64,000 bases of DNA from a virus, in IMG/VR virus record IMGVR_UViG_3300033977_000049, positions 23,975-87,974 of that record. One strand, given 5' to 3'. Shown one piece after another: positions 3,939 to 59,486 of the stretch (its first letter is position 1; every line of letters starts with the position of its first letter). The notes under the pieces were generated by a model, which made no database searches, was not told the DNA's origin, and worked only from the letters and a program-made list of their open reading frames with translations. The position numbers were made by a program, and so were the translations under genes.

Positions 3939-5864
3939 TTAGGGAAGTATGGCTCCCGCCACAGTTGGGAGCACAGTCCTGGCAGTTGAAATTGCGCCGG
4001 GGCGCTGTGAAGGAGGAATTGCTTCTGCCGCTGCTTCAACTGGAATTTTTTGATATTTTTTATTGTTAATATACCATTGTACATCTTTTATTGGGACTTG
4101 TTCTATTTTACCTTCGGGAGTCAGCATGGCTGTATAACCCGCACGCTCTCCTGGATGAAATTCTTTCATAAGTTCTGTCGTTCCACGAGGGGGAATTCTT
4201 TTATAGCCAGCCTTAATCGCAGCTTCAGCTTTTTCTTTAGTATCGGCCTTTACTGGTACGCCACCCCTAGGATTATATAGCCATTCCTGCCCTGGCTTAA
4301 GACTATCCCATTCTTCTATTGGTATTTGAGCTTGTAGCGCCGCTATATCCTCGGGTGGAGGGGCCGCAGCTTGAACCTTTCCTCTTAATAGGCCTAGGCG
4401 TTGTTGATAGCTATCTCTTTCTCTTTGTAAACTATCTACAATATCCATTTGTTTTGCAACTGCGGGATCTTTCGGGTCTGCATCTTTAGGAAAGCTAATA
4501 TGTGATAATTGATCGTTAATAGCATCCATTCTTTCTTCAAACGTTCCCGCTAAATCAACCGCATCTGAAACGGTTAATGTATCCGCAACCCGTTTTTGAG
4601 CCTCATCTGTAGGAACTCCTTGCCTTTCAAGCGTCATAACATCGCTAGACCATTTTTTGAGAAGATCTAATTGAGCTTGTTTTTGTAGTTGTTCTTTCCG
4701 GGTGCCCTTTTCCACGTCTATTTCAAGATTTCTAAGTAATTGAGATAATCTTTCCGTTTCTAATCTACTCTTTTCAGTTGCCAGTTTAGCTTGTTCTTCT
4801 TGTTCTGCTAAATCCCTTATTCGTTTACCCGAATTCTTTTCCTCGGCCTGCTCTGTATGTAAAAGTATAGTATTAAATTGATCCCAAGTTATGGATTTAT
4901 TATTTGCAGCATAACCCTTAAGGGTATTAGTCAAGCCTTCAAAATCTTTATCTACTCCGCTTTTTTCTAATTTATCAATAATAGCTTGACCTTCGGGAGT
5001 ATTGAAGGGGATGGGCTTATTTGGATCAATATCAATTACCCCTATATTATTATCGAAACTCACACTACCCCTAGACCCATCTGGATTTAATACATTAGGA
5101 TCATCTTTCCAGGTTGAAAGATTTGGACCAAGATCAATAAATAATTTTTTATGAGCATCACCTGCCATTTTTTTAGCCTCAGCGGTGCTAACTATTTGAC
5201 CGGACATTTGAAGCTTATTAACTAATAGATCATATATAGGACGATTTCCTTCCGTTGCCATTTGTTGAATTTTTAAATCCTGATTAGCCCTGTTATACAT
5301 ACCTTGAATCATTTCTTGATTTAAATGAGCTATATTAGCTTGGACTAATGTTTCTTCGCGCTTTTCTCTGGATAATTCCATGCCCCGCTGAAATTCCTGT
5401 TGAGCTTGCTGTATTTGCTGTTGGCGTTGTCCGCCTAAAAATTGACGCTCTGTTTCTGCCCCTGCTATTTCAGCCTGGAATCCTCCGCCCCAGATGTTTC
5501 GCTGGTGCTGCTCCATACCAGCCGCTCCACCTAATATAGAAGCCGCTAATATATCCCGAAAGAATGCTCCGGGCCGTCTTCGGCCAACATTAACTTCTTC
5601 CATTTGTCCGGTTTTCGGATTAATTCTAGGAACAGATTGCTCTGCATTCATTGAGCGATATAAAGATCGTGCTGCGCCACGAATATCTCTTCCCATTCTT
5701 TGCCTTAATCCGGGGCGTTGCATTGCCGGTGGTGCCGCTTGAGTTGCGGCAGGAGGTATAGTAGTAGGGGCAAGAGCGGTTGGCAGTTGCGCACCTGGAC
5801 TTCCAAGCACTGCTATTCCCGGCGCTGTATTTGCTTGTGGAGTAATATTATTTCCGTTTGCCAT
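3939..5864 (-). CDS. Putative ejection/internal virion protein (coiled-coil, Q/A-rich)
   Basis: 641-aa ORF with helical composition, between a pilot-like gene and the giant protein, as in podovirus ejectosome operons (inference from position). Confidence 0.55.
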   Translation of the reverse strand: MANGNNITPQANTAPGIAVLGSPGAQLPTALAPTTIPPAATQAAPPAMQRPGLRQRMGRDIRGAARSLYRSMNAEQSVPRINPKTGQMEEVNVGRRRPGAFFRDILAASILGGAAGMEQHQRNIWGGGFQAEIAGAETERQFLGGQRQQQIQQAQQEFQRGMELSREKREETLVQANIAHLNQEMIQGMYNRANQDLKIQQMATEGNRPIYDLLVNKLQMSGQIVSTAEAKKMAGDAHKKLFIDLGPNLSTWKDDPNVLNPDGSRGSVSFDNNIGVIDIDPNKPIPFNTPEGQAIIDKLEKSGVDKDFEGLTNTLKGYAANNKSITWDQFNTILLHTEQAEEKNSGKRIRDLAEQEEQAKLATEKSRLETERLSQLLRNLEIDVEKGTRKEQLQKQAQLDLLKKWSSDVMTLERQGVPTDEAQKRVADTLTVSDAVDLAGTFEERMDAINDQLSHISFPKDADPKDPAVAKQMDIVDSLQRERDSYQQRLGLLRGKVQAAAPPPEDIAALQAQIPIEEWDSLKPGQEWLYNPRGGVPVKADTKEKAEAAIKAGYKRIPPRGTTELMKEFHPGERAGYTAMLTPEGKIEQVPIKDVQWYINNKKYQKIPVEAAAEAIPPSQRPGAISTARTVLPTVAGAILP

Positions 5865-5866
5865 AT

Positions 5867-6274
5867 TTATTCCTTATCCGTTAACCGGACAGATTCATTA
5901 AAATATTCTAAAATCGTTTTTTCCGATACCTTCTCATCCTGCAACGCTCGCCGGAGAAATGATATTATTTTTTTTACATTACCGGGATCTGATATTCCAT
6001 ATACTCTAAGAAGAGAAGCTAAAGTATCAGTGGTTTTGATATTCGCCCGGCTACTACCGCTAATCTTTTTCTCAAGATCGAAATAACCGGCTCTATAACC
6101 AGCCACTAAACTTGTAAATTTTCGTCTACCTTCATCATCGGTTTCATGTTTTCCTGGAGGACCGAAACTTTTAAGCATAAGGGGATTGCGAAGTTTGTAA
6201 GCTGTTGATCCAGGATCGGTGAATGCCCCGTTGAGATTGCCAAGTGCATCTAATAGAGCTTCAAGCTTATTCAT
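5867..6274 (-). CDS. Hypothetical virion protein, possibly lysozyme-like fold
   Basis: Likely start MNKLEALL at 6274. RNPLML...RKFTSLVAGYRAG resembles the NNP...F.s...G.rA motif of phage lysozyme-like proteins. Confidence 0.4.
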   Translation of the reverse strand: MNKLEALLDALGNLNGAFTDPGSTAYKLRNPLMLKSFGPPGKHETDDEGRRKFTSLVAGYRAGYFDLEKKISGSSRANIKTTDTLASLLRVYGISDPGNVKKIISFLRRALQDEKVSEKTILEYFNESVRLTDKE

Positions 6275-6275
6275 T

Positions 6276-11424: not shown

Positions 11425-14400
11425 TAAGTCGAACATTCTAGCTTAGCCAACTCTTCTTTTAAAATCTTTCTATCTTCTTCGCGGTGCGACCATCCAAGTC
11501 GATATATATCATCCATAACTTTTGGCTCTCTGGAAAAATGATGATGAATCATTTTGGCATCTTCGCACCTATGGGCTTCATTTATTTTAATGGCCCTGGA
11601 CCATAACAGGTTATCGCATCCTACATGAAAAAACTTTTCCGAAAAGATTTCTCCGAATTTTTCAATCAAATCTTTTCTAATTAAAAAGTGCTCGCAAATA
11701 TTACTTTTGTCTGGATAAAGCTCTCCGGTATTAAATGTTACAAGGCCATGATTCTTTGATGCCTTTACTGCATTATAAAGGCTCCAGGATTCAAACTCCG
11801 TATCATTAGCGGCAAAAACATAAACATCAGAATTGTTGTTTGCGCGGTACATTCTATTAACTTTTTGAGGAACTGTAGCTTTTTTATCGTTATCTATAAT
11901 AACATCAATGAGATGCTTGGGATAATAAAGGCGATCAATTGAATCCAAGCACCGCTTTAGTCCCGATTCTCTTTCTAGGGTTGGAATTAAAATGCCCACC
12001 CTAGGAAGGAAATTGGGTGAATCAGAAGCCCAACTTTTCATAAAATGATGGAATCCTATAGTATTATCCGTTAACCGGATAGTCCCATCTTGATGATTAT
12101 AGGGGAAAAAATATTCAGGGGAAAGAATTTTAATGGTATAATCCGATGCTACCTTTCCTGGCGCTAACCATAGACATCTAGGCTCGCCATAAGCTTGAAG
12201 ATATATCTTTGGGGTAATCACTTCTTGCGCTGCTTCAAAGACATATGCATCATCTCCGGAAAATTTTTCTTCTATTTCCCTAAGGCACTCTTTCATAATT
12301 GGATGATGCGGAATAGATCCCATTATAGAATTAGCAATAAAACAATTTTCTTCTTGGCATACAAATAGCTTATATTGTAATAAATTATCAAAATTTTTTC
12401 CCGAAAGAATTTCCATATCGGCATCACAATAAATGCCACCTTCTTTTTCTAAATACCACATGCGCAGATAATCAACCGCCTTAATCCATTTTCCCGATGC
12501 CAAAGCCTTTTCCACATAAGATATATTTCTTGGAATGTCTTTTAATCCAATAATTTTATGCTCGTAACCTAGCACCGCTCGCTGGCTGTTAATACATTTT
12601 TCTATAAAGGGTGGCATGGTTTCATTATTAGGTAATCCCCATATAGTAAAAATTTTCTTGGGAATTAATAATTCTAAAGAAATCATGTCTTTATATAATT
12701 CCTGCATTTCTATTAGAGGGGGTTGATAATCTCTTGTTTGGCCTAAAAAAATAGGATCAAATGCACTTCCCGTATCTAAGCATGTAACATTATGATTGGC
12801 TTCCAATACACTAGCTATCAGTGGTTTAGCTGCAAGTCCACAGCTAAATATAAAAATAGAATTATTTTGGCAATATGGGCGTAGCTTGTCTAAAATGGCG
12901 TTGTAATTTGCAAATGCATTTCTTTCTGGAACTTCTATAAATTTAGCCTTCAACATTTCTGTAACTTTACTTAGCTTAGACGGTCCTATAAAAACCTTTA
13001 TCCTGTCAAGATTGCTTAGGGTTTTATAAAAATCATGGATGGGAGTTAGGTCTTTATCTTTTGGATGTAATAAAATATTTCCCAATTGTAAGCTATCTTT
13101 ATCTCTCCAGAATGCAATGTAAGTATCGGGCAGATTATATAAAAAGTTGAATGCTTTGCGCAGGGCTTGATTAAGTTCTAGGGAATAAGCTTGCCCATCA
13201 CAATTTTCGCCCTTTACATATTCCATGCAATGTTGTTCACCGTCGCCAAATTTGATGAAAGCAAATGGTTCGTTCGATATAAGTTTTTGTAAAAGTTCGT
13301 TTAACGATTTTGGATATTTTCCAAATGGTTTCTCTACTATATCACTATGCCATAACAGACCATCCGGCACTTGTTCCACCTGAGATTCCTCAACAGGATT
13401 TCTTTCTTCAAAATATTGTCTATCTTGATTATATTTTGGATGTTGAGGGTCATAAGCTATAGCTTTTTGCCAGTGCTCTTTTGATTTTTCTTGCTGGCCT
13501 AAACGCCAAAATGCCCAATATAACATTTCATGGGGATAATTTGTATAGTGCGATCCTATATTGCAATAACAATCATTAAGGGGAATTTCTAATGCAGCCG
13601 CTCCATAACATACTGTCTTTTGAGCATCGCCCTTTTTATAAAAATATTCAGCTAGTTTAATTAAAGGTTCGCGCCTAGTTCCGTCTACCGTAAAAGATTT
13701 ATGGTAAGCTTCTAGCGCCCTGTCATCTTCACCCAAAGCGAGATAGGAATCCCCTATAAAAATAAAAGATTGCCCGCGCTCCTGTGCCCACCTATTCATT
13801 GCAACGTGTCTGTTTAATTCCTGAATAGCAGATTTGAAACGCCCATTCCAACATAATTCTCGGCCAAAATAGTGTGCATTTCGGTCATTTTCCGGATGTA
13901 AATAACAATCTAGGGCAAGGGCTGGTAAATAATTAGAGCGATGTTCGTGAGGTGCTTGATGGTGCTCTACTAACATGATTTCTTGGGGTAAATAGGTGCA
14001 TTTAGCTTGTCCAACTAATATTTCATGTACGATTCCCTGCCAGTGCATTTTGCGCCGATCATAAGTTCTGCAATGTCGAAATTGAATAGCGGGCTGCCCA
14101 TTAGGATATCGGCAGAATATAAAATGCATTTCCATCTGCTCGTATCCTTCATCAATTAATTTTTCGATAGCATCTATATTTAAGGTGTTATATTTTTCAT
14201 CACAATCAACAATGGATACGATATTATTGTTAGCCAATTCCACGGCGCGATTTCGGGCAGCAGCAAAATCAAATAATTTATCTCCGGCCTTGATAATAGA
14301 TTCTTCGCCTTCAATAATAAACTTTTTATTTACCGCGTCGGCCACTTCTTCGGTAACTATGTGTTTAAATTTCTCGCCTTCTTCAAATACTCTATAGCCA

Positions 14401-15410: not shown

Positions 15411-16542
15411 TTATTTTTCCTTCAGCAAAGGACCTATTACTGATAATTCTTGATGCTTCATTTTCCGGTAAAGACAAGTTTAAAATTCTATCGCATATTA
15501 GTTTGGATAGATAATATTTGCCGACCCAATAGGCAGAAATGGCAAGTTCGTCTAGTGCTCGCCATTCATATACTTCTTTTTCCACAAACAATCTATCATT
15601 TGGAATCGGTATGTTTACTGCTTGTTGGGCAAAAAGAAAAGCAGCATCATGATAATTATGACATCTATAATATCTAGCCAGGCGATATATAGGTTCGGCC
15701 CTAGTCGGACGGCGATTATAGGCCCTTAAATATGAAAATACTATTTCTTTTTCTGATAAATCAAGTTGCTCTGATACGCAGCCAATTTGATATGCCGACC
15801 ACCAAGCCTCTTCATCCCAGCCGCCCATTTCCATCCGTCGTGTATAAAGATCTATGGCTTCCTTAAAATTTCCAAGATCACGATGGGTTTGGGCTAGATA
15901 AAATATTGTACGGCAATCGTCTGGATTTTTTCTATAAGCCCCTAAAAGAAGCCCCAAATCCCTTTCTAGCTTTTCTTTATATTGTTCCGGAGTTTTTCCG
16001 GGTCGTTCTCTATAAATTCCGGAAAGCGGATACGTGGTATAAAATCTCTGACAATCCAGATATTCATGAGTCTCACCTTTCCAAATCCAAGGTAAATTGC
16101 TTCTAATTAAAAATGGCCTTAAATATTGCAGTGAACAATATTTTTCCAATATTTCATAGCAATCTTTTTCTAGGGGATCGGGAAGTTTGAAATTCGTGTC
16201 TGGAAATAATTTTGTGCGCCCATCCATAAGCATAATATAATCACAATTCATTTCTTGGGCTAATTTTAGTGCTTCATTTCTATTATGCTCAAAATTTTTC
16301 CATTCGCTAGTTTTTATTGTTATCGGAAGGCCAAGATTATTACACGTTTCCTGGCAAATCTGTAAAGTATTATCTTTGCTTCCGGTATCTATAATTGCGG
16401 CATGTGTAATAAAGGGCAATGCCGATTTAATAGTATTTTCTATGTATTGCGCCTCATCTCGCACAATCATATTCCAGCAAATTGTATTTTTAGTTAAAGC
16501 ATTTGGCTCGTTAAAACGACGCCGATCAATAACTTTTATCAT
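15403..16542 (-). CDS. GT2 glycosyltransferase with TPR repeats
   Basis: ICWNMIVRDE, IDTGSKDNT, F..NRNEAL, GETHEYL, FYLAQT, RPTRAEP. Confidence 0.85.
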   Translation of the reverse strand: MIKVIDRRRFNEPNALTKNTICWNMIVRDEAQYIENTIKSALPFITHAAIIDTGSKDNTLQICQETCNNLGLPITIKTSEWKNFEHNRNEALKLAQEMNCDYIMLMDGRTKLFPDTNFKLPDPLEKDCYEILEKYCSLQYLRPFLIRSNLPWIWKGETHEYLDCQRFYTTYPLSGIYRERPGKTPEQYKEKLERDLGLLLGAYRKNPDDCRTIFYLAQTHRDLGNFKEAIDLYTRRMEMGGWDEEAWWSAYQIGCVSEQLDLSEKEIVFSYLRAYNRRPTRAEPIYRLARYYRCHNYHDAAFLFAQQAVNIPIPNDRLFVEKEVYEWRALDELAISAYWVGKYYLSKLICDRILNLSLPENEASRIISNRSFAEGKINA

Positions 16543-16553: not shown

Positions 16554-19307
16554 TTAAGTTACACTTATCAAAAATACAATTTGATAATTACCATTACTTC
16601 CTGCAACTGAATAAGAAAATGTGGGATTTAATGGCCCGCCCGTAGGAATGCCTGTATATAAACAACCAGAAGCATTAGCACCATCATTAACCTGTTGCTG
16701 TTTCGTAACCGTAGCTGCTGGATCGGATACAGTATCAGTAGAAGCAGCGCGATTAGAACCAAAATAAATCGCCAAATCCGTAGAACATGGAGAGGGTGAG
16801 GTACTTGAGTTCATGCTAAGTGTTATAGAAGAAGATCCAGTTGTATTAATTTGACTGGTAATGGGAAACCAAATTCTATCCATGCCCTTGAGAGTTATAA
16901 TGGCTAAGACCGCATCATACGTTCCACTAAAACTGATTGTAACTGATCCATTGCTAATGTCAGTAGAATTTAAAACTTTCCAAAAAGTATTTTTTGTCCA
17001 ACTAGCTTGATTAACTGAATCAATGGAAACCCATCCGTTAGGAGTTGTGGCATAATAACCTCCAGCCGTAAAAATAATAGCCAAATCACCAGCTTGGGTT
17101 CCCGAAGGCCAAGAAACTGTATAACTTGACGCACTCGATGCTTGAATGCCAGTTCCCCTAATGGATGGCGTGGAAACCGCCCCTCCCGTAGCACCAGTTG
17201 GTCCGGTTGCTCCAGTGGCTCCTGCTCCAGTTACTCCAGTTAGTCCAGTGGGTCCAGCGGGTCCAGTGGGTCCAGCGGGTCCAGTGGGTCCAGTGGGTCC
17301 AGCGGGTCCAGTTGGCCCTTGTAATCCAGCAGCCGCCGTATTTGGCGGACCTTGCACAATAGTTGTATCTGTAACGGCTCCGGCCCATCCATTACCACTT
17401 AAATCCGGCTCTGGGCTAGTGCCCATAAATTTCCAATAAACTGTAGGATAGCCCACCGATACATCCATTGAGGGATATCCATTTGCCAGATTAGTTATAT
17501 CTGTTGCGGTTAATTCTTTTCCTATCCACACCGCAGGCTCGGCAACGGAATGAGGTGAAAAATAGCTTGTAGTAGTTCCCACTATACCAGCATTAGTCTG
17601 GAAAAATCCATTAGTACCAGTCATAGGACCTTGATTGCTTCCCGGACCAATCGTAGAAACTAATGCTCCGTTTAAATAAGTATAATATGTTCCATTCCCA
17701 GAAGTAATAAAGGCTATATGATTCCAAACTCCCACCATTCCAGCCCAATAACTCGATGGAATACATACAGCGCCCCAATCGATCCAGGCTTGGGAACCGG
17801 AATTATAATAAGAAGTCCATAATAATGCTCCTGATGGGCCGCTTTGCACATCCCAATCTAGGGCCATGTCGAAATAATAATTTGCCGATCCATCATTCCA
17901 ATATGATTCTGCAAAACAGCATTCTATAGTATCACTTGCTTGGCCAGTTTTAGGTTGCCATAATGGTTTAAACCAAAATGACATAGACATAGAACCGCCA
18001 GAATATGTAATTCCAGAACTGGTGGTATAGGTTGTGGTTATATGTCCTGTAGAGCCATCGCCTTTACGTCCGGAAAATGGAGCAGTGGCATTAGCGCCCG
18101 TTGTTCCGGTTAATCCGGTTGGACCAGTCATGCCAGTTGGCCCTGTTGATCCAGTGGGTCCTGTTCCCCCACCACCCGATCCTCCCGTTGGAGCTTCCCA
18201 ATTTATTCCATAGGGCTGAGAAGGATCAACGGTTAATACATAACCAGCGGTTGCTCCTACTGGTAACACTACATCTTGTTTGCCGCTGCCAGTAATTAAT
18301 CCGCCTTCAGGCAATAAGGGTAGTCCCGTTATAATTTGCTGAGCCGCAGAGGAAAATGTTGCTAAAATGACCGCATAAGCTGCCGCTGATGTTCCCGGAC
18401 CCCCTACCGATGAGGTTACTTGACCAGATGGCAGATTGCTTATCGATGCAGTAGCAATCTCATACCAACCGCTACTCCAGGAGGGAACCGTAAATGAAGA
18501 GGGAGACCAAGATCCCCATGTTGGGGTATAATAAAATGAAAAAGTAGCAAGGGCCAATACCGGACCAGATGAACTAACTGTGCTAGTAGCAAGTGTTCCC
18601 GGTTGATTTCCAGCATTTCCCGTACCAACTGTTAGACTTGGCTTTCCTTGAATTTCAATAACATAACAAACATCATATCCGTATCCCGGAGTTGGCCAAG
18701 TGTTAGAAGTAAAATTCCAAGAGCTTCCATCTCCCGATTGGACAATTTTTTCTCCTATAACTGCATTGCCGCCATATCCAGAACCGCTATAACTGGATAA
18801 TTGTTTAAATCCAGTCGGAAGATTTATTGTAACCGGACCACTGGACGAACTAGAGAGTGCTATAGCTATTAACGTATTTCCTGGTGTGGGAGAATTAGGA
18901 AGAGTAACGGTAAGTGGATTGGAATAAACATTTCCAGTTTGAGAAGCTTGTACGATTTGAGGAATAGTAGGCGCTGTGGGTTGTACCGTTACAGTTCCAG
19001 CAGCAGCTTTTTGAGCCGCTTGATTAGCTTTTACAAGAGCTTGCTGCGCTGTATTACTTATCAGCGTAGGCATTGTAGGAAGATTTCTAACAAAAGTTGG
19101 CCGATCTGGAAAGAATCTGGTTGTATAAATATCAGCAGCCGGATCTACGGGAAGATTCCCACGATTGGGAGATGGATTTCCGGGAACAGATAGAAGGGTT
19201 CCTTGATCCTTAGTTGGCGCTATGGGAATTTGTGGCGCTGGATTTTGCGAGGATTGAAATTCCGCCTGCGTTGCTGGCGTTGCCGCTCTTGATTCAAGTG
19301 ATGGCAT
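16554..19307 (-). CDS. Tail fibre/adhesin with collagen segments and LamG-like domain
   Basis: GPT/GPA triplets; MSFWFKP...WNHIAF...YLNGALV concanavalin/LamG signature; S/T-rich beta domains. Confidence 0.75.
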
Positions 19308-29810: not shown

Positions 29811-30000
29811 CTCGTTAAGGCTGTATTTTTTGTCCGCATAGCGGACACTTTTTAGGCGCTATCCCTATCCAAATCCATCCGCAAAAACATTTTACGTCTT
29901 CACAGATATCTTTCTTTGTTAAAACCATCGTACAATTTGGGCACTTACGAACCCAAACTAAATCTTCTCTGTAGGCCATAAAGCCTCCAGAATGCATAAA

Positions 30001-41571: not shown

Positions 41572-42569
41572 TAAGCTTCTTCTTCCCTGGATGGACTTAA
41601 AAATTCTTGATTTTCTATATATTCTTTAAGGCCTTCAGTTAAAGAAACGGATGGTACAAATCCAGTTATCTTCCTGAATTTTGTGGTATCTGCAGCCTTG
41701 CGAGATGCGCCTTCGGGCTTACTTCTATCAAATATAATTTGCGGATTTTTGCCTGTTACTTTGGATATTTTCTGTAATAATTCTAGCAAAGAAGTTTCTT
41801 GATCGTGTCCTATGTTAACAGGATCAGCATATGGATAAAGTTCGGTAATCAGCTTCAATCCTTTGGCTAAATCCCGATAATGAACAAAGCTTCTGGTTTG
41901 ATTTCCGCTTCCCCATACCACAATAGTATCATCGCCACGCAAAAATTTTCTGATTAAAAGTGGAAGAACGTGGGACTTATTGTCATCTTCTTTAGGTTCT
42001 CGGCCACCGTATCCGTTAAACGGACGCCCTATAGCAATTTCCATGCCATATTCTTGATAATAAAACAAGGCTTGCATTTCCAGGATACGCTTAGCCCATC
42101 CATATCCGCTATTAACTATTTCTGGAAAACGACTCCACCCCTCGGATTCAGGAGTAGGCACTGTAGCACTGTCCGAATAAACACAAGAACTGCTAACCAA
42201 TAAATACCTTTTAACACCTACCCTCCTTGCAGCTTCTAAAAGATTTAATCCAATTAATAAACTATTGGTTAACATTTCCCCGTGGTGGGAACTACTATAT
42301 TCTACCCCAAATACCGGGGCGGCTAAATTCATTACTATATCTTGGTTCCTGCAAACATTTATACAACTATCAAAATACCTAAGATCACACAAATGGAAAT
42401 CTATTTTACTAAAATTTATTTCGCTAAAATTAGATAGCCTGCCCCGAGACAAATTATCAGCAACGGAAATTTTGGCTCCATCTTCTATTAATTGTTCTAT
42501 TAAATAAGATCCAATCGCCCCAGCGCCTCCAGCAACTAGGACTTTTTTATCTTGCCAGAATATACTCAT
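41559..42569 (-). CDS. NAD-dependent NDP-sugar epimerase/dehydratase
   Basis: GGAGAIG, SSSCVY, YGWAK, RPFNGYG, WGSGNQTRSF. Confidence 0.9.
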   Translation of the reverse strand: MSIFWQDKKVLVAGGAGAIGSYLIEQLIEDGAKISVADNLSRGRLSNFSEINFSKIDFHLCDLRYFDSCINVCRNQDIVMNLAAPVFGVEYSSSHHGEMLTNSLLIGLNLLEAARRVGVKRYLLVSSSCVYSDSATVPTPESEGWSRFPEIVNSGYGWAKRILEMQALFYYQEYGMEIAIGRPFNGYGGREPKEDDNKSHVLPLLIRKFLRGDDTIVVWGSGNQTRSFVHYRDLAKGLKLITELYPYADPVNIGHDQETSLLELLQKISKVTGKNPQIIFDRSKPEGASRKAADTTKFRKITGFVPSVSLTEGLKEYIENQEFLSPSREEEAYWEN

Positions 42570-44247: not shown

Positions 44248-45230
44248 GTTGGATATCCAGGAACATCGCTCGCGTAAATTATTTTACTACCCTTTGGTTC
44301 AAAATTGACATCCACTTTACGGAAATTATTAAGCGCCTTAATTACTTGGTTTTGTTTGGATAGATCACATATTAAAACAAGGAATCCACATCCACCCGCC
44401 CCGGCTAGCTTGCCGCCTATAGCTCCGGCAGAAATGGCTTTATCGTAACACTCATCAATCCAAGAATTGCTAATATTTTTAGCCAGTTGCTTTTTAAGCA
44501 TCCATCCTTCATGAATAATCTGACCCAGCCCTTGTATATCTAATATAATAAACGATTTCCAAAATTCCTCTGCCAAATCATGTATTCTAGACAGATATTT
44601 ATAATTGCTGGTAATATTATCGGATTGATCTTTTAAAATAACAGCAGCATTTCTCTGCCCGTCTAAATAAAATACTAATAAACTTTGAAAAAATTTCCAA
44701 GTTAAAAAATCTTCTCTACGAGAACTAACATTAATACTTCCATCTTGATTAAATCGATATCTTCTAAGCCCACCGTAAGCAGCCGCACATTGATCTTGTT
44801 TTCCTATAGGTTCTCTTAAGACATCAATTTCTAAATGGCATGCCTTTGAGACTAACGACTCGGGTGTTTGATAATCTTTTTTATAAGCATAAAGAGCGTT
44901 TAAAAGCCCAACCGAAAAACTGCTAGATGATCCCAGCCCTGTACCAGCAGGAATGTCTCCTATGGAAGTCAATTCTATGCCATGATCTATCCCGGCTATT
45001 CTTAGTGCTTCCTTAAATCTAGTATGCTGAATCTGATCTATATTTTTAACAATTTCTGTTTTAGAATAACTTATTCTAATATCAGAGTCAAATCTTGGAT
45101 TGGCCGTAATATATATATATTTATCTATAGTAGAACTAACAGCGGTTCCTGTAAAATCTTTATAATATTGAGGAAAATCCGTACCACCGCCAATAAAACT
45201 AATCCTTAAGGGCGTGCGTGTAATAATCAT
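44232..45230 (-). CDS. GHMP sugar kinase, HddA-like (heptose-7-phosphate kinase family)
   Basis: TPLRISFIGGGTD, PAGTGLGSSS, GKQDQ, GGKLAGAGGCGF. Confidence 0.9.
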   Translation of the reverse strand: MIITRTPLRISFIGGGTDFPQYYKDFTGTAVSSTIDKYIYITANPRFDSDIRISYSKTEIVKNIDQIQHTRFKEALRIAGIDHGIELTSIGDIPAGTGLGSSSSFSVGLLNALYAYKKDYQTPESLVSKACHLEIDVLREPIGKQDQCAAAYGGLRRYRFNQDGSINVSSRREDFLTWKFFQSLLVFYLDGQRNAAVILKDQSDNITSNYKYLSRIHDLAEEFWKSFIILDIQGLGQIIHEGWMLKKQLAKNISNSWIDECYDKAISAGAIGGKLAGAGGCGFLVLICDLSKQNQVIKALNNFRKVDVNFEPKGSKIIYASDVPGYPTCSKI

Positions 45231-45922
45231 TTCCGGTGACCGTAAATTATTTCAGGGGATAATCCCTTGCCACGCCCAACAGGAGATAATTCATCCACCC
45301 AATCTGTCATATGAATATGATATGGTCCAATTCCATATTTATGAAGTGTAGATCCTACCCAAAAATCTTCGCTCCATTGGTCCACGCATGAATCTATGAG
45401 CCTATTCGATGCAGTTCTAGAAAGCCAATATCCATAGACCCCCGTAGTATATAATATTCTATCATAAACAACGCATGATCCGCTATATGGATACCGATCA
45501 AATTCTGAATAATAAATACCTTTCCATTCTCTTACAAAGCTATCCGCGCATAATTGTAAAATATATTCGTATTTATTATCTAATGCATATTGACTGATGC
45601 ATCTTTTCTTCCAGGGCAGGGCCATATATGCATCGAGGCAATCTAATTGAATTTCATCTTTTAGGAGGGGATTGGGGAAGGTTTCAAATGATCGAAACCC
45701 GTGAAAGGTGTCGCCATTTAAAAATATTAGATTTTCTTCTTTTTTGCAGCTATCAATATATTCTTGGCTTACGTCTTTAAGGAATAATTCACCCGGCTGA
45801 CCGACAAAAAATTTTAAATCCCAAGGGCATTTTCGCCCCCAGGTTTGTCGGATGGCCTCGTGAACACCATTTTGAATAAATTTTATACAGGAGTGTACGG
45901 CAACTAGAATGTTATCAACCAT
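45227..45922 (-). CDS. GT31/fringe-like glycosyltransferase
   Basis: IRQTW, CADSF, GYWLSR, SEDFWVG; paralogous to the N-domain of 42586-44247. Confidence 0.7.
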   Translation of the reverse strand: MVDNILVAVHSCIKFIQNGVHEAIRQTWGRKCPWDLKFFVGQPGELFLKDVSQEYIDSCKKEENLIFLNGDTFHGFRSFETFPNPLLKDEIQLDCLDAYMALPWKKRCISQYALDNKYEYILQLCADSFVREWKGIYYSEFDRYPYSGSCVVYDRILYTTGVYGYWLSRTASNRLIDSCVDQWSEDFWVGSTLHKYGIGPYHIHMTDWVDELSPVGRGKGLSPEIIYGHRK

Positions 45923-45940
45923 TATATTGCCTATTTCCGT

Positions 45941-46111
45941 TTAACGGATAACTGGTAAATCTGGATTTACGACTTTTTTAACGGCCTTTAGAACGGCAGA
46001 GGGATTTCCTTTAATCTTTAAACTCATCTTAGCAGAGGGCCTATGCTTTAATCTAGACCTTCTTGCCCTCTTGCGTTTTTTCCCTTTTCCTAGAATTTCG
46101 GCAGCGGCCAT
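45941..46111 (-). CDS. Small basic protein (MAAAEILGKGK family), 56 aa
   Basis: Below track cut-off; hand-translated MAAAEILGKGKKRKRARRSRLKHRPSAK...PVIR*. Confidence 0.75.
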   Translation of the reverse strand: MAAAEILGKGKKRKRARRSRLKHRPSAKMSLKIKGNPSAVLKAVKKVVNPDLPVIR

Positions 46112-50115: not shown

Positions 50116-50730
50116 TTAATAACGTTCCATGCAGAATTCAACCACGGTATAAGTATTACCAGCATTAGCTGTAGCAAAAGTAAATGATGGCATAAAGTTG
50201 AGTTCCTTAGAACTTGCCACACCTGAAGTAAGCTGAGTACCAACAGCAGCTAAAGTAACCACGGCATTATTTACTGATCCAACGTGCCCACCGTCTAATT
50301 TGGCCACCATGGAGTCCCATTGGAAAATCCATTGAATCTGGAAGTGTCCGCTTGCTGGAGTAGTAAAAGCAATGCTATCAATATTCTGATCGCCAGAACC
50401 GGGGGCACCAGCGCTAGTCACAGAACCAGAAGCACTGATAGTACCCAATGAGAGAGACGGGACTTGATATAACTTGACCGTCAAGTTTCCAGCACCCGGA
50501 TTGGCTATCTTGCACGTTAGCTGAACACCAAAAGCATGACCATCCAACGCTCCACCGGTAGCTAGATCATAAGTAGCAGGAATGCAAAGTCCCGAACCTA
50601 CTGGATATTCTGGAGTTGGAAATCCTGGATAAGTTCCCGCTGCCGGAACAAGCAAGGCATGTTCGTTGGTATCGGTAAGAGTTACCGTAGGAAGATTCCA
50701 TATTCCATTATAGGAATTAACATTCGACAT
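50116..50730 (-). CDS. Probable virion structural/decoration protein
   Basis: G/T/S-rich beta composition; GAGG RBS. Confidence 0.5.
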   Translation of the reverse strand: MSNVNSYNGIWNLPTVTLTDTNEHALLVPAAGTYPGFPTPEYPVGSGLCIPATYDLATGGALDGHAFGVQLTCKIANPGAGNLTVKLYQVPSLSLGTISASGSVTSAGAPGSGDQNIDSIAFTTPASGHFQIQWIFQWDSMVAKLDGGHVGSVNNAVVTLAAVGTQLTSGVASSKELNFMPSFTFATANAGNTYTVVEFCMERY

Positions 50731-51058: not shown

Positions 51059-51343
51059 TTACCGGCTAGACTCTTTTCTTAGATAGGACTCGCCTAGCCA
51101 GCTATTTTCTTCATCTTCTATATCTCTTTCAATTTCTGAAAGTGAAGGTGTGGGGGATACCCTGCGACCACGAAGGTTCCGATGAAGTAAATAAATACTT
51201 CTCGTTGCTCCCTTTCCACTACCACGGGTTTCATCTAAAAATTCTTTTTCGATTTCTCTGTCAGTGAAGGCCATGGCCCCCTCATATATCCTGTAAAATG
51301 GGGTCGGCTTAGCTATAACTTCTTTAGTCTCTTGAGAATGCAT
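51059..51343 (-). CDS. Hypothetical protein
   Basis: Track ORF; start uncertain. Confidence 0.45.
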   Translation of the reverse strand: MHSQETKEVIAKPTPFYRIYEGAMAFTDREIEKEFLDETRGSGKGATRSIYLLHRNLRGRRVSPTPSLSEIERDIEDEENSWLGESYLRKESSR

Positions 51344-51687
51344 TTAATAGTATTGATAGATATATGCATCTCCTCAGCAATATCCCTAGCGGCATGGCTT
51401 AGAATATAATAGGAATAGATAATATCAAGCCATTGAATAAACTTCTGCCGTCGAAGATTATTGGGAGTGGTTTTAAGATGTTTACAAAGGTGAGACTCAC
51501 AAGCCTTGCGGGTTTTTAAATAGGCAGGTTTTTTATGGGGATGTCTCTTGCTCTTGAAAATTTGCATCCGGTTAATATCTTCTTGCCCAAACCGGGAAAA
51601 AAGTGATTGCCGATAAATGCTCAATCTAACATCATCAAATTGCCATCGGTCAAAATGTACGTTTTTTCCGCTATCCTCTGTAAGCAT
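51313..51687 (-). CDS. HTH DNA-binding protein (sigma region-4-like C-terminus)
   Basis: ARDIAEEMHISINTIKCILKRL. Confidence 0.65.
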   Translation of the reverse strand: MLTEDSGKNVHFDRWQFDDVRLSIYRQSLFSRFGQEDINRMQIFKSKRHPHKKPAYLKTRKACESHLCKHLKTTPNNLRRQKFIQWLDIIYSYYILSHAARDIAEEMHISINTIKCILKRLKKL

Positions 51688-54417
51688 ATGAACTGTAACC
51701 CCTTGGCTTAAAAACTATTTGTTCCCTTTTTACAACATCTCTTTCATCAAGCCATGTATCGCTATGAATGTATCTTGATGATTTAAAAGCATTTTTAGAT
51801 ACATAAACGATAGCGATGCCATCAAATCCCTCGAATTTCTCTGCCGATGTAAGAACTCGTATCGTCTTTCTTTTCTTAGATTTTAAATGTATAGACATTT
51901 TATTACTTTCCGTAAAGCGGAAATTAAAAAGTAACCGCTGCCGTTACAATTACCACCCCAAGCCAATAAATTGCCCTTCTAAAATCTCCAACTATACAAT
52001 AACCAACCGAAGCCCCAGCAGATAGAGCTATAACCCCAATTGCTAGCCATTTTCCAATATTCATATTATCTCCTTTCATTTTGGCGCATCCGTATAACGG
52101 ACAGAAATTTTTGCTTTTAAAGGAATTAGGGTATAATCAAATTCGTCTTCCCCTTCTTCCATTTCTGTAATAACTAGTAAATAATGTCCGATTTTAGCTA
52201 TCCGGCCAATGGAAGTTACCTTAGCAGCTAGGAATTCTTTGCCCTGGCGCATAGCATCAAAATTGGGAAGTTGCTCTTTATAGCGGGTTTGGGCATCTTC
52301 CCAATCAACTTCTCCATGCCGAAAGCGAATACCATTAATAATTACACTCTTACTAGCCATACATTCCCCTAATTTTTCTTGCTTTGCTTCCAAGCTGCAA
52401 TAATTACTGCAATCAAAATCCATGCTGGAAAGAGTAGGATTAAACCAAGAACAGAAGTGATGATATATTTCATGTTTATTCTCCCATGGAATTACAAACC
52501 ATTAATCTTTATCTCCAAATTTTCCAATCGCCGTTCTGCTTCTTTTAAACTGTTGTCTTCCTCAAGCAAGGGAGGTGCATCTGGTTCTTTGTCTTCGATC
52601 TCCGGCCTTGGATAATACGTATCCCATGCGATTTGCGCTTCATGGGCCGACTTGAGCACAAATATCCACAAATGTTTAATGACCAGGGTTCCTACAGCTA
52701 CGAACAAAAACAAAGACATGGTTAATCCAAAAACATTCCAAAACATTGAAAACACTCCGTCCATTATACCCTCCTATTTGTTTTTATAACTTCTAGCCCA
52801 GCCCGTAAACCATAATACCAATCCACTTAATATCAATAAATCTCCTAGGCTAAAAATCATATAACTTTTCCACGGGATGATATCGCATAAAAATAAAAGG
52901 CGTGTAGATGAACTTGCCACGCTATGGTATCCATCCACTATCTTCATTGTGCCCGCGCATGGCATGGAACTATAATTGGCTGCTATCACTAGGGCATTGC
53001 ATAAACATCCTGTGCCACACATAAATCTTCCGGCCCTCTGAAGGAAATTATCCACTAAGGCATACAGCATAAAAGCAAATGAACACATAAACATGGCCGG
53101 TACAAAATAATGAGGATGTTTCGTGTTAATAATATTACTTACTATAGAGAACATCATTCCTAGCCATAAAATCAAAAGCGATCCTCCCCTAATTGCACCT
53201 TCATTCATTTTTATCATTCCTCCATAATTCATACCACACCAGAAAGAACATCACCAGGCATCCTACTGCTATGCATATTAAAATCCGCTCCATTATTTTA
53301 AAGTTATCTGCCTTTCTTGAGTTTGCACTTGGCTGGGTGCCTGTGTAGCCCCCATAATTGTCGGCTGCCTCATGCCTACAATTTGCACATTAATTAAAGC
53401 ATGGCAATCTCGACAAAAGAAAATCTGAACAATTGGGATTGGAGCACCTGGGAGCGCTGGCATTTCTTTTGCGATTGACGCTAGATTAAGTGGACATGTT
53501 TGGCAAAATCCGCATGCTATTTCAATTTTTTCTTCTTTTGGCTCGTCCATTATAGACTCCTGCCTTCTAAAAATTTTCTATAAGCTATCGCTTCTTGGCG
53601 AAGCTTTTCCCAGCCCGGATCTGAACATTGTCTGAAATGCGACCCGGTTTTTTCATTAATAATATCCAGGGCGCATTGACCACAAGCAAATCCGTAAAGC
53701 ATCTTGAAATTCATAAGTGCTCTTACTAATCGCCCCGGATAATCGATCTTACAAAAATCACATAACATCGTCTTCCCAATTTTTCACCCTAGTTACACCA
53801 AGGCATAAGTTTAAAATTTCTTTAATACGTTCTCGCATCATGAGAATTTCTTTAAAAGCCCTCCATTGAACATCAAAATTAGCCGCTCCCGTTTCAAGGG
53901 AACCAAGCTCGGCATCATTTAATTTATCAGATTCTTGTTTAATCATTTTAATCTCGCAACGGTATCTATAAGTTGGGCCAATAAATTATTTTGCCATTCA
54001 AGATTTGCAGCGATTGCCTGTAGACAAAGAGCCTTAAATGCTTCTACGCGCTCTGCATTATCAAATCTATCCTTGAAAGCCAAAACATCTTGTACTGTAA
54101 ATTTAAAATTTATAATTTTATTCCAGGCTCGTATATTATCGGCCATAATAATTCTCCTTTCATCTGACATCTAAATGTTCAGGAATTTGACATTGAATTG
54201 TCGTTCCACAAGTACAATGAGGCGTAAGTTTTAATCCAGGATTATCAAAATTTTTTATATGAATTGTATGCCCAGCCGATACTGTTATATATGTTTTTGG
54301 CAAATAAGCATTCAAAAATGCACCAACGTATCTTTCCCTAGTCCAGCCGGAATCTATAATCCTATCTTTTATAATATTCCAAGCAGCAAGAGCTTCATCA
54401 ACCAAATCTTTTGACAT
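51671..54417 (-). CDS. Run of small coupled hypothetical genes incl. a multi-TM protein at 52774-53232
   Basis: Track ORFs 51671, 52076, 52492, 52774 (N.LVI.AN..MP...L.D, FSLGD motif), 53293, 53550, 53758, 53943, 54160, many with overlapping stop/start. Confidence 0.6.
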
Positions 54418-55179: not shown

Positions 55180-55452
55180 AATGTCCTTCTATATACATTA
55201 GTTTCCGTTTTCCGGAAATAAGTAAAAACTATTGCACATGCGAAGGCTAATATGGTAAAAACAATTATCATCTATTTCCTCGATGCCCGCACCATAAAGC
55301 ATAAAGAAATGCAAGGCAGAGTAATAAAAGCATAAGGCATAAATCCATTAGCTATTCCTCGTCTTTATTTCTATTTACAAGCCTATGGAAGGCCCATAGA
55401 AATACAACCATAAGCCATGCCCAAATAAGGGCGATATCAATTATGATTTTCA

Positions 55453-55836: not shown

Positions 55837-55845
55837 CTTAACCCC

Positions 55846-57056: not shown

Positions 57057-57598
57057 AAATCCTCCTATTGCGAAAAGTTTAATTTATCCTAATAAAAGTT
57101 ATAAGTGGTTGGGGGGTCACTCTCAGTCCATCGCCGCCCCCGAAGGGGGTTCCACCGGCCCCCAGGGCCGATTCCAAAAGTAGTACCTAACTCCTTTCCT
57201 ATCAATAAATTATCGGCCATCACCAATTCCCCTCCCATCTTATTTAGATGCTTATAAGCTATCCCTGGTCCTCTATTCTATCGCGCCCCTGGCTCCGCAC
57301 CTGGAATTTTATTCAAAGCCCAGGTTGCGCCCTATTGCGAGTTGTTAAGTCCTTTATTTACAATAAATGTTGTAGAGTTTCCTACTCTACAACATTACTC
57401 GTTATCTGCTATTAAGTCAGTATGTTACGCGAATGCCGATATTTCGGCGCGGGCCGTGCAACCCTTCCACTCCTATCCACTATTTACCACATTCCACCAC
57501 TTAAAATCTTTATGTAACGATGTCTTTGTTATAGACAAGTTCCTATAGACTCCGTTTTGTACACCCATAGTTGACAAAATAGCATGGATTTAAACCGC

Positions 57599-59219
57599 CT
57601 ATTCTTCGCTTTCAGATTGCACTATTTCCTTTAACTCCTCCTCGCTTAATTGCTCAATTAACTCGCTCATTGCTAATTGCCGGGGTAATGGCTTACGAAG
57701 GTCATTGCCGTCTAAGTCCACTTCTGCTATAACCCAGGAGGCTTTACTAATCATTAGTTTATACCTTGCGGTCATAATATTTCCTCTCGAACTTTCTCAG
57801 ATAATTCTTCAAAATCTTCCTCCAGAGAATCAACTTGCCCTTGTAAGGAATAATCTTTTTGCTTATCAAACTTTGCCATATTCCCCGGCCATTTATTAAT
57901 AACTTCCAATGACCTTTTTACAGTCGCCGGACATGGTAATTCGCCGGGATCGGGTTCATATCCGGTAAAACAAATACCCCACAGGAGTCTAAGCGCTTGC
58001 CATTCGGGATGCCGGTCACAATATTCGCATTCCCCAGGCGCATGTAGAACTCTGGCATCGCAATGAGGTGTTTGTTTAATCAAATTAATTGCATCCAATT
58101 TAGGGATTTGTTTTCTAAACATTTAATCCTCCGTAATATCCGCTTCATCAATCAGTGTTATTGTGCCACCGATTTTATTTACCCATTTTTCAAGGTCGGT
58201 AATAGGTCTTGAAATAAACTTATGTAAGATTGGCGCTGCCTCAATAATACACTGATCCGGCTCGGTTATGCCTACAGCAGCGCAAAAATTTTTAGTGGTT
58301 ATTTGATACCATTTCATTGTATTTTCCCCTGTCCGCTTTCCGGCTGTTCAATCAATTCTTCCAATTCAATATCCTTTTTCTTATTCAATTCGCTCAATTC
58401 CTGGTAAATTCGCTTAAGGTATTTCACTTGCTCTGCCTGTCGCGCCGAATCTCGCCACCATAAATAGGCTTCCAGACCACCTAACGCTAGAATAATGATT
58501 AGCGCTTCGATCATATCCCACCTCCGCATTTCACACACTTTCCAGTTTGCGGATAATTTCCAGTTTGTGGAATGTGGGGTTTGTGATAATTATCCCACGC
58601 ATGACACATTCCGCATTCGCATGGATCAGATTTGGTTGCGAATGCTGGGTCTGGAATCCATGATTTTTCATCATGCCAACCTATGCGCTTGGCCTCAATT
58701 CCGCTATACCATCTTTTTTGTTTTTCCATTTTTAGGTTTTTGTCCTATACGTAAAATTTGGTAACGGGATTCAGAATGCCCCCAAAAGGCCATATTCATA
58801 TTTCTACGTTCACAGGCAGCCTTGCGAGTTTTATAACAAGAAGCATATTTCCAATCTGAGTCGCGCAATCGAAACCATACCCATTTGCCACGCACAACAC
58901 TAAATACAGAGCACCAAACACACCAATTTTTATTTGAAGTCATTTAACAATTCCCTTGCCAACATCGACATTTCTCGAAAATTACTGAGCGTATTGTTTT
59001 ATCTCGACACTGCCATACCCATTTAAATTTTCCTTGAAGGTAAATTGCTGTATGTTCACATTGATAACATCCTCCACACCTAGAGCACTTATAAAGTAAG
59101 TCACCACATTTAGCACACCGTTTTTCATGGACGGCACACCTCACACTCTCTCCACCATTATAATACCATACTTTCGTGAAATTATTGGAATATTTATTCA
59201 TTCCAGGGGGCATATCCAA
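57599..59219 (-). CDS. Run of small hypothetical genes, several Cys/Trp-rich
   Basis: Track ORFs 57772, 58123, 58314, 58511, 58704, 58944 plus hand-translated 57599-57775 (MTARYKL...). Confidence 0.55.
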
Positions 59220-59486
59220 TGTGTGAAAATTCTCAACTTTCGGTATAAATGTCAGTGGGAGTTTTTTCGCACTCGGTTATTTCACTCATTCCTAGCAATT
59301 GGAATTCCATAAAATGTTTAATATTGGACGGGATGTTGAAATTTACAATACCTAATCCAGATGATTGATTCCAAACAATTTAGGGCGATAAGAGAACTTT
59401 TGTCCGCATAAAATTTCAACACATTTTTCCGCTTAACGGACAAGGCCAAGCCTCTAAAATCCAAGTAAAAACTATATTTGGTTTAT

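What the first reader, a model, noticed from the sequence alone, without database searches (positions are those of the whole stretch)
5605..59442. Dispersed palindrome TCCG-nWWWn-CGGA, 13 exact copies across the window
Exact TCCG-N5-CGGA sites were found by eye starting at 5607, 5877, 12067, 16018, 22328, 22981, 29833, 42012, 45936, 51909, 52089, 55204 and 59428. In all 13 the central three bases are A/T, and most extend to T-n-TCCG...CGGA-n-A (17 bp). Assuming ~40% GC, my arithmetic gives ~0.3-0.4 chance copies of the 8 fixed bases in 64 kb. Sites lie inside unrelated CDSs and at gene junctions, so codon context does not explain them. Inference: genome-wide binding sites for one dimeric protein (parS-like organiser, packaging/protection factor, repressor or sigma54 activator). 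Candidate binders in the window are the HTH protein 51313-51687 and the ParB-like segment of the giant protein.
Basis: partly seen in the sequence, partly recalled or inferred. Interest (0 to 1): 0.85.

Follow-up and report, generated by a model that had tools for sequence, protein, structure and literature searches.

The report
Dispersed palindromic protein-binding sites in phage
This peat phage and many of its relatives carry dozens of copies of one short DNA palindrome scattered through genes and gaps alike; it is most likely the landing site of a still unidentified two-part phage DNA-binding protein, a kind of system seen before in phages but not understood.

Summary
About 0.3-1 copies are expected by chance, and the excess appears at spacer 5 only. 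The working site is TCCR-N5-YGGA (40 copies). T, C and C are invariant, the centre is 92% A/T, and T/A flanks are frequent. All three reading frames are used.

The site is strand-symmetric: half-degenerate sites show no G·U over A·C preference on the mRNA strand. That fits double-stranded DNA read by a dimer, not an RNA hairpin.

The motif is family-wide. Related 90-110-kb soil and peat phages carry 24-47 copies of lineage variants: GTCCG-N5-CGGAC, TTCCA-N5-TGGAA, ATGTCC-N7-GGACAT and a spacer-4 form. Some clades have few or none. Positions are not conserved, about 85% lie inside genes, and there is a 2.4-fold excess just upstream of start codons.

The best candidate, still weak, is a conserved 233-aa protein outside the window with a ParB/KorB-like DNA-binding fold.

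The closest published analogue is the 17-bp repeat of Cluster O mycobacteriophages. This scan has noted the same kind of system on other phage DNA.

The parts
5607..5619 (.). exact site TCCGGTTTTCGGA, inside the 641-aa gene
5877..5889 (.). exact site TCCGTTAACCGGA, 12 nt upstream of the start of gene 3939-5864 (-)
12067..12079 (.). exact site, inside the 1057-aa glycosyltransferase gene
16018..16030 (.). exact site, inside the 379-aa gene
22328..22340 (.). exact site, inside the 1187-aa gene
22981..22993 (.). exact site, inside the 113-aa ORF
29833..29845 (.). exact site, 22 nt upstream of ORF 29541-29810 (-)
42012..42024 (.). exact site, inside the epimerase-like gene
45936..45948 (.). exact site, 13 nt upstream of the start of gene 45227-45922 (-)
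51909..51921 (.). exact site, intergenic, 10 nt upstream of ORF 51671-51898 (-)
52089..52101 (.). exact site, 9 nt upstream of ORF 51924-52079 (-)
55204..55216 (.). exact site, intergenic, 24 nt upstream of ORF 54829-55179 (-)
59428..59440 (.). exact site in the divergent intergenic region between the two transcription arms
18069..18081 (.). half-degenerate site (TCCA...CGGA class)
   Evidence: this class has 13 copies against 2.8 in shuffles
20105..20117 (.). half-degenerate site
28093..28105 (.). half-degenerate site
34462..34474 (.). half-degenerate site
37611..37623 (.). half-degenerate site at the 3' end of the terminase gene, 38 nt upstream of the EndoVII gene 37057-37572
42134..42146 (.). 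half-degenerate site
44311..44323 (.). half-degenerate site
45479..45491 (.). half-degenerate site
50347..50359 (.). half-degenerate site
50488..50500 (.). half-degenerate site
52201..52213 (.). half-degenerate site, third member of the 51909/52089 cluster
58541..58553 (.). half-degenerate site, 2 nt upstream of ORF 58314-58538 (-); a TCCA...TGGA copy follows at 58559
63182..63194 (.). half-degenerate site in the plus-strand arm
51313..51687 (-). It has no homologue in motif-rich relatives.

Best explanation
The sites are double-stranded-DNA landing sites for one sequence-specific homodimeric protein that the phage itself encodes and that co-evolves with them. Each half of the dimer reads (T/G)TCC(R), and the two half-sites sit across a bendable A/T-rich centre. 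What selection maintains is the number of sites along the genome (one per 2-4 kb, in genes and gaps alike), not particular positions. The protein therefore acts on the genome as a whole rather than on single promoters. My preferred sub-mechanism (about 0.35) is genome-wide silencing or roadblocking, of the kind done by KorB at OB sites, by cluster A stoperators or at phiC31 CIRs. Sites just upstream of start codons would act on individual genes, and intragenic sites would block elongation from either direction. The second sub-mechanism (about 0.25) is loading or organising sites that mark phage DNA for replication, compaction or packaging. Shown here: enrichment, symmetry, base-specific constraint, family-wide inheritance with variants. 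Inferred: that a protein binds, that it is phage-encoded, and what it does. The best candidate binder (about 0.25-0.3) is a conserved 233-aa protein in the replication module (genome 10524-11195, about 13 kb before the window) with a ParB/KorB-type DNA-binding-domain fold.
For: The motif occurs 22 times against about 1 expected, and only at spacer 5. T, C and C tolerate no change; only position 4 allows G<->A (13 against 2.7 at control spacers), and the centre is 92-99% A/T. All frames are used. TCCA..CGGA and TCCG..TGGA are equally frequent on the sense strand: 59:56 pooled, 7:6 in this genome. The spacer ends do not pair. Whole genomes of relatives carry 24-47 copies of lineage variants, including a spacer-4 form. 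Motif presence and type cluster on the terminase tree. There is a 2.4-fold excess of sites 0-40 nt upstream of start codons: 38 against 15.6 expected. Spacing is more even than random in 3 of 6 genomes. Core positions change less than background in close pairs: 8% against 14%, P=0.03, few independent sites. For the candidate protein: it is present in all 8 motif-bearing genomes. Its AF2 model has pLDDT 94. The top structural matches are ParB, KorB, VirB, Spo0J and SopB DNA-binding domains, Z 5.5-6.7.
Against: No binding was shown and no binder was identified. About 85% of sites lie deep inside genes, far from any promoter. Promoter-like matches near the sites are at chance level. The candidate protein also occurs in a relative with no motif enrichment (G009). 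No site lies next to its gene. Foldseek found no significant match, and a profile search of PDB sequences found no ParB relative. The Z scores are in the range the tool warns can be a common helical arrangement. The variants could equally track different hosts' proteins.
Confidence: 0.62

Rival explanations
1. The sites bind a host protein (a global regulator or nucleoid protein) that the phage exploits. The lineage variants reflect different hosts.
For: No phage gene's presence matches the motif's presence across 11 genomes. Relatives span 40-62% GC and so probably infect different hosts.
Against: Closely related phages from similar soils differ in spacer length and half-site, while very divergent ones share a type. 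One clade keeps all core genes yet has no sites. The hosts are unknown, so this could not be tested directly.
Confidence: 0.12
2. The motif is the target of a DNA modification or cleavage enzyme: a methyltransferase, a restriction-like enzyme, or an HNH/EndoVII nickase producing T5-like nicks.
For: 4-N5-4 interrupted palindromes are typical of some type II enzymes such as SfiI (own knowledge). The genome carries 4-5 EndoVII-type genes, an HNH gene and a LAGLIDADG gene.
Against: Enzyme targets are normally avoided, not enriched 20-fold. N6_N4 methylase is found in only 1 of 5 genomes and C5 methylase in none. EndoVII genes show no spatial link to sites (P=0.70). LAGLIDADG presence does not track enrichment in 38 loci (P=0.19).
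Confidence: 0.08
3. These are classical operators or enhancers of a gene-specific regulator: a repressor at promoters, or a sigma54 activator.
For: There is an excess of sites 5-25 nt upstream of start codons. One site lies about 80 bp upstream of a TGGCAC-N5-GTGC match at window 59507. A tyrosine recombinase in 5 relatives hints at a temperate lifestyle.
Against: 85% of sites are intragenic and far from starts. Only one gene family has a site upstream in more than one genome. There is no Sigma54_activat domain in this genome and there are only 3 loose -24/-12 matches. Sigma70-like matches are at chance.
Confidence: 0.1
4. The sites act as RNA or single-strand DNA hairpins: a processing site, a translational operator, a terminator or a hairpin promoter.
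For: Several sites end 9-13 nt before a start codon. The giant virion protein recalls N4-like phages that use hairpin promoters (own knowledge).
Against: The stem has only 4 pairs. The sequence, not the pairing, is conserved. The G·U-compatible and A·C-mismatched hybrids are equally frequent on the sense strand. Spacer ends are not complementary. No site meets the terminator scan. Sites are indifferent to the direction of transcription.
Confidence: 0.04
5. It is chance, or a by-product of codon usage or repeated protein motifs.
For: One recurrent TerL site at residue 437 is explained by a conserved S-I-I-W-N peptide. TATA-N5-TATA (35 copies) is a by-product of the collagen-like repeat.
Against: Shuffles that preserve protein and codon usage do not reproduce the count. 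All frames and the intergenic DNA are used. Only one spacer length is enriched.
Confidence: 0.01

Closest known systems
17-bp palindromic repeat of Cluster O mycobacteriophages (Corndog, TGTTCGG-N3-CCGAACA; PMC4351075)
   Same: One dyad-symmetric word occurs more than 30 times throughout a 70-kb phage genome. The arms are invariant and the centre is A/T-rich. Orientation is not linked to transcription, and most copies are not at promoters. The function is unknown, and the authors infer a dimeric DNA-binding protein.
   Different: The sequence, the phage family and the host phylum are different. There about two thirds of sites are intergenic or near gene starts; here about 85% are intragenic. 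Here the motif is followed over a deep family with half-site and spacer variants and with clades that lack it. The Cluster O genomes studied were near-identical.
KorB and its OB operators on IncP plasmid RK2 (PMC11790492)
   Same: A palindromic operator is repeated around a mobile genome. It is read by a dimeric ParB-family DNA-binding domain, and some copies lie far from promoters, giving long-range silencing. The candidate binder's best structural matches include KorB.
   Different: KorB needs its ParB_N CTPase clamp domain and the partner KorA. No ParB_N domain exists in these phages. OB has about a dozen copies (own knowledge) against 22-47 here. The binder here is unproven.
Stoperators of cluster A mycobacteriophages (PMC9283540, PMC6550527)
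   Same: Tens of repressor sites are distributed over the whole phage genome, including inside genes, with lineage-specific variants.
   Different: Stoperators are asymmetric, are read by a monomer and are oriented with transcription. Here the sites are symmetric and orientation-free. No repressor is known here.
Chromosomal dispersed palindromes: Noc-NBS, SlmA-SBS, MatP-matS (own knowledge; the Noc-NBS structure 6y93 appears)
   Same: 12-14-bp palindromes occur in tens of copies. They are read by dimers and act through their distribution along the chromosome rather than through promoters.
   Different: These are cellular systems tied to cell division and chromosome segregation. No homologous protein was detected here.

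Membership tests
ParB-parS partition system | ParB_N (CTPase) domain protein | tested here: not met
   PF02195 finds nothing in G000, G001, G003, G004 or G005, while 11 of the 14 control genomes match (9 above the family cut-off). Pfam on the giant protein gives only Radical_SAM and DUF7178.
ParB-parS partition system | parS sites clustered at one centromere-like locus | tested here: not met
   Sites are spread over the whole genome, 1-5 per 5 kb.
ParB-parS partition system | ParB-type HTH DNA-binding domain | tested here: inconclusive
   For the 233-aa core protein, VIA-align gives Z 5.5-6.7 to ParB, KorB, VirB, Spo0J and SopB DNA-binding domains. Foldseek gives E>0.1, and the profile search of PDB sequences gives no ParB match.
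KorB-OB global silencing | Palindromic operator repeated around the replicon, partly distant from promoters | tested here: met
KorB-OB global silencing | CTP-dependent clamp (ParB_N) and KorA partner | tested here: not met
   There is no ParB_N domain. A KorA-like partner was not searched for.
Stoperators (cluster A mycobacteriophages) | Asymmetric site oriented with transcription | tested here: not met
   The site is a perfect dyad, and there is no orientation bias of hybrids or spacers.
Stoperators (cluster A mycobacteriophages) | Temperate phage with immunity repressor | tested here: inconclusive
   A tyrosine recombinase is found in 5 relatives but not in this 89%-complete contig. No repressor was identified.
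Cluster O-type dispersed dyad repeat | One dyad-symmetric word in tens of copies throughout a phage genome, not tied to promoters | tested here: met
   compared with PMC4351075
Cluster O-type dispersed dyad repeat | Same sequence or homologous phage | tested here: not met
   The word is different (TCCG-N5-CGGA against TGTTCGG-N3-CCGAACA). The nearest cultured phage by TerL is Tunturiibacter phage Tunturi_3 at 30% identity.
sigma54 enhancer (bEBP upstream activating sequence) | AAA+ Sigma54_activat protein and -24/-12 promoters downstream of the sites | tested here: not met
   PF00158 is absent from this genome. There are 3 loose GG-N10-GC matches in 88 kb, and only one lies near a site.
Restriction-modification target | Cognate DNA methyltransferase conserved with the motif | tested here: not met
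   PF01555 is found in 1 of 5 genomes and PF00145 in 0 of 5. Other methylase families were not tested.
Intrinsic terminator / RNA hairpin element | Stable stem with compensatory changes and strand-specific placement | tested here: not met
   The stem has 4 bp with invariant letters. A·C hybrids are as common as G·U hybrids. No site appears in the terminator scan.

The most novel reading that the evidence does not exclude
The palindromes form a genome-tiling lattice of loading sites for a clamp-less, ParB-DBD-like phage protein. This would mark phage DNA as self and organise it for replication, silencing or packaging. It would be a widespread, heritable and rapidly re-specifying 'phage chromosome code', shared by many uncultured 90-110-kb soil phages and analogous to systems the scan has met in unrelated phages.
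Probability: 0.25. Interest if true: 0.8.

Novelty: new variant of a known kind. Interest (0 to 1): 0.6.

Why it matters
Dispersed dyad repeats in lytic-looking phages have been described (Cluster O) but never explained. Here the same kind of element is traced through a large, deeply diverged family of uncultured soil and peat phages. It shows natural variants of half-site and spacer, and there are sister clades that lack it. That comparative material is what is needed to find the reader protein by covariation and to test whether such sites silence, organise or mark phage DNA.

Tried and rejected
- **HTH protein 51313-51687 as the conserved binder:** no homologue in G001, G002, G003 or G005.
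- **ParB-like segment of the giant protein:** not detected by Pfam, by PDB sequences or by PF02195.
- **EndoVII paralogues as site-linked nucleases:** no proximity to sites.
- **LAGLIDADG protein (31531-32409):** its presence matched the six motif-rich genomes, but the match failed in 38 loci.
- **Phyletic profiling of all G000 protein families, BLAST clusters plus iterated HMMs, over 11 genomes:** no family present only where the motif is present.
- **Autoregulatory site next to the 233-aa candidate gene:** none found.
- **Positional conservation of sites in TerL:** only a peptide-driven recurrence at residue 437.
- **De novo search for another palindrome in the motif-free relatives and in Tunturi_3:** none found.
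- **Apparent depletion of TCC-N7-GGA in six loci of one clade:** borderline, not pursued.
- **Covariation test via loci around the candidate gene:** The search for related loci could not build patterns from A2 or A3.
- **Sequencing runs:** only the probable source run is listed, a peat metagenome kept as contigs. No RNA holder is listed.
Full report
**Observation**

The pattern TCCG-N5-CGGA has 14 exact copies in the window. One hundred dinucleotide-preserving shuffles give a mean of 0.33 and a maximum of 3. Spacers 0-15 other than 5 give 0-2 copies.

The window is bases 23975-87974 of an 87,974-bp single-contig phage genome of 40% GC. CheckV rates the contig 89% complete. Its only listed sequencing run is a peat metagenome. 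Genome-wide there are 22 copies at spacer 5 and 0-3 at every other spacer. Shuffling synonymous codons, or permuting codons within genes, leaves about 4 copies. About 3 of those are simply sites in stretches that were not shuffled.

Among all 4+4 interrupted palindromes, only TATA-N5-TATA is more frequent in raw count, and that one is a by-product of the collagen-like GYT repeat in a tail-fibre gene.

**Anatomy of the site**

- **Working site.** The site is broader than the exact match. TCCR-N5-YGGA has 40 copies at spacer 5 against 2-9 at other spacers.
- **Half-degenerate sites.** Sites with one TCCA half number 13 against 2.8 in codon-permuted genomes. The doubly A-type form is not enriched in this phage.
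- **Base constraint.** A position-by-position test shows that T, C and C tolerate no substitution. Only position 4 accepts the other purine.
- **Centre and flanks.** The three central bases are 92% A/T in a 60% A/T genome. T at -2 occurs in 16/22 sites and A at +2 in 13/22.
- **Frames.** Sites fall in all three reading frames and in intergenic DNA.

**DNA site or hairpin?**

The spacer ends are not complementary. The decisive point is the orientation of the half-degenerate sites relative to the mRNA. The G·U-compatible form (TCCG..TGGA) and the A·C-mismatched form (TCCA..CGGA) are equally common. The counts are 6:7 in this genome and 56:59 over all related loci. The pooled profile is a perfect mirror image. 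None of the sites in the scanned stretch (window 44000-60500) is picked up as a terminator, and sigma70-like matches there are at chance level. This is what a dimer reading double-stranded DNA predicts. It is not what an RNA or single-strand hairpin predicts.

**Distribution**

Genes run outward from a divergent region near window 59500, in a long minus-strand arm and a plus-strand arm.

- The minus-strand arm holds small early ORFs, then glycosyltransferases, terminase, portal, capsid, fibres and a 3340-aa virion protein.
- The plus-strand arm holds the primase-helicase and other replication and lysis genes.

Sites occur in both arms at 1-5 per 5 kb. Over six motif-rich genomes, 38 of 256 sites have a start codon 0-40 nt downstream, against 15.6 expected (maximum 28 in 300 trials). 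These tend to end about 9-14 nt before the ATG. The remaining 85% lie inside genes. Only one gene family has a site upstream in more than one genome.

Spacing is more even than random in three of six genomes (CV 0.67-0.72, P 0.003-0.047) and not in the other three.

**Relatives**

No close relative exists among cultured phages. The best TerL match is Tunturiibacter phage Tunturi_3 at 30% identity. Metagenomes hold a large family of 90-110-kb phages with TerL 36-58% identical.

In 20-kb loci around TerL, the top over-represented palindromes in many of them are TCCG-N5-CGGA, TCCA-N5-TGGA or GTCC-N7-GGAC. These are one register of the same word.

| Genome | Size | Motif | Copies | Expected |
|---|---|---|---|---|
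| G000 (this phage) | 88 kb | TCCG-N5-CGGA | 22 | 1.1 |
| G001 | 96 kb | GTCCG-N5-CGGAC | 47 | 2.4 |
| G002 | 95 kb | GTCCG-N5-CGGAC | 24 | 1.8 |
| G003 | 92 kb | TTCCA-N5-TGGAA | 43 | 2.2 |
| G004 | 109 kb | ATGTCC-N7-GGACAT | 46 GTCC-N7-GGAC | not computed for the whole genome |
| G005 | 94 kb, terminal repeats | GTCCGGWWCCGGAC (spacer 4) | 27 | 1.7 |

Two further genomes (G006, G008) have only 5-9 copies. G009, the fragment G007 and Tunturi_3 have none, and no other palindrome is enriched in them.

On a quick TerL tree, motif presence and type are clustered. Absence needs 9 changes against 17 in shuffles, and a well-supported 16-row clade is entirely A-type or mixed.

Site positions are not conserved between lineages. 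In the few alignable pairs, core positions change less than background (8% against 14%, P=0.03). Several of the changes seen are purine-purine swaps at position 4 that keep the site. That sample is small and redundant.

**Who reads it?**

- The 124-aa protein at 51313-51687 does have a sigma-region-4/LuxR-like C-terminal HTH by eye, plus a weak antiterminator-Q hit. It has no homologue in four motif-rich relatives.
- The giant protein shows only Radical_SAM and DUF7178 domains.
- No ParB_N domain exists in five genomes.
- A sigma54 activator domain is absent from this genome.

Conserved DNA methylases are also absent. EndoVII paralogues show no link to sites. A LAGLIDADG gene in the capsid region looked promising by phyletic pattern, but failed in a larger sample.

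Among core families shared by motif-bearing genomes, the only non-structural protein of unknown function is a 233-250-aa protein in the replication module (genome 10524-11195, outside the window).

- It has no Pfam hit.
- It has 509 representatives in the 50% identity library.
- Its model is confident (pLDDT 94): a long N-terminal helix, a helical core and a C-terminal helical hairpin.
- The exhaustive structural search puts ParB, KorB, VirB, Spo0J and SopB DNA-binding domains in seven of the first nine places (Z 5.5-6.7, 86-103 residues aligned).
- Foldseek lists Noc, P1 ParB, SopB and KorB among non-significant top rows.
- The protein atlas gives DUF3102 and 'ParB HTH' clusters as sub-threshold leads.

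- The Z scores are modest.
- A sequence profile finds no ParB in the PDB.
- The protein also exists in motif-free G009.
- No site flanks its gene.

**Lifestyle**

A tyrosine recombinase is present in five relatives, including motif-free G009, but not in this contig. A temperate or plasmid-like phase is therefore possible for the family but not shown. The recombinase does not correlate with the motif.

**Mechanism**

The evidence supports base-specific, symmetric recognition of double-stranded DNA. It also supports selection for the number of sites rather than for particular positions. Within that, I put about 0.35 on genome-wide silencing or roadblocking and about 0.25 on an organising or loading role.

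- **For silencing or roadblocking:** the excess at gene starts, the lineage-specific specificities that resemble immunity groups, and the possible temperate lifestyle.
- **For organising or loading:** the even spacing in some genomes, the site turnover, and a candidate reader sitting in the replication module.

The remaining rivals are a host protein (0.12), a gene-specific operator or enhancer (0.10), an enzyme target (0.08), a hairpin (0.04) and chance (0.01).

**Comparison with known systems, and novelty**

The closest published case is the 17-bp dyad repeat of Cluster O mycobacteriophages. It has 34 copies, an A/T-rich centre and no orientation, mostly lies away from promoters, and its function is unknown (PMC4351075).

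KorB-OB on RK2 (PMC11790492) and the cluster A stoperators (PMC9283540, PMC6550527) are functional analogues. Membership of those families fails on defining features: there is no ParB_N clamp, and the site is symmetric rather than oriented.

Earlier notes of this scan describe the same kind of system in other phages. One of them is a peat phage with TCCAAAWTTTGGA, which matches the A-type variant I found independently in G003 and its clade. Those notes are unchecked AI notes, not independent evidence.

I class this as a new variant of a known but unexplained kind. What is added here is the family-wide inheritance with half-site and spacer variants, and the clades that lack the motif.

**Limits**

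- No binding or expression data exist.
- The hosts are unknown.
- Gene calls are my own greedy ORF calls.
- The tree is the quick version.

Noticed in passing
window 30591-32589: The ORF at 31531-32409, between pieces of the capsid gene, is labelled HNH by PHROGs. Pfam calls it a double-motif LAGLIDADG endonuclease (LAGLIDADG_1, E=2e-10). Homologues occur in all six motif-rich genomes compared and in none of the other five, some as single-motif forms.
   Followed up: partly
window 23797-24513 (+), 37057-37572 (-), 46111-46521 (-); genome 14557-15009 (+): There are four EndoVII-domain paralogues per genome (2-5 in relatives). One is always between terminase and portal, and one sits on the opposite strand inside the structural arm. 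They look like free-standing homing endonucleases.
   Followed up: partly
genome 17878-27900 (window 1-3926 is its N-terminal part): This is a 3340-aa virion-module protein with a Radical_SAM domain (aa 1600-1759) and DUF7178. It is conserved in most relatives.
   Followed up: no
L039, L041, L110 (TerL loci); P0062, P0084, P0117: Some relatives' terminase genes are about 300 codons longer and carry a LAGLIDADG_3 domain. These are probably inteins in TerL.
   Followed up: no
L058 / L131: These loci show enrichment of TCC..GGA at two spacings at once (N6: 18 and 15 copies; N7: 20 and 18). One phage may therefore carry both spacer forms.
   Followed up: no
L017, L018, L027, L048, L095, L102: In six loci drawn from motif-poor relatives, TCC-N7-GGA is rarer than at other spacers (5 observed against about 28 expected). 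This is borderline after multiple testing, but it could mean avoidance.
   Followed up: partly
whole contig: No DNA polymerase gene was found in this 88-kb contig, although relative G001 has a family-A-like polymerase next to its recombinase. A beta-clamp-like gene (genome 8793-9866) is present. The missing ~10% may hold the polymerase and the recombinase.
   Followed up: partly
genome 1-294 and window 62194-63099: The contig begins inside a leucine-rich-type repeat ORF (LPANAKLSAGGDL...). A paralogue of it lies near the other end, so the assembly probably broke in this repeat.
   Followed up: no
genome 10524-11195 (P0121), residues 147-196: The candidate ParB-DBD-like protein has a single TPR-like sequence motif (W..LG..Y....A...F..A...DP). 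It produces spurious matches to designed TPR proteins.
   Followed up: no
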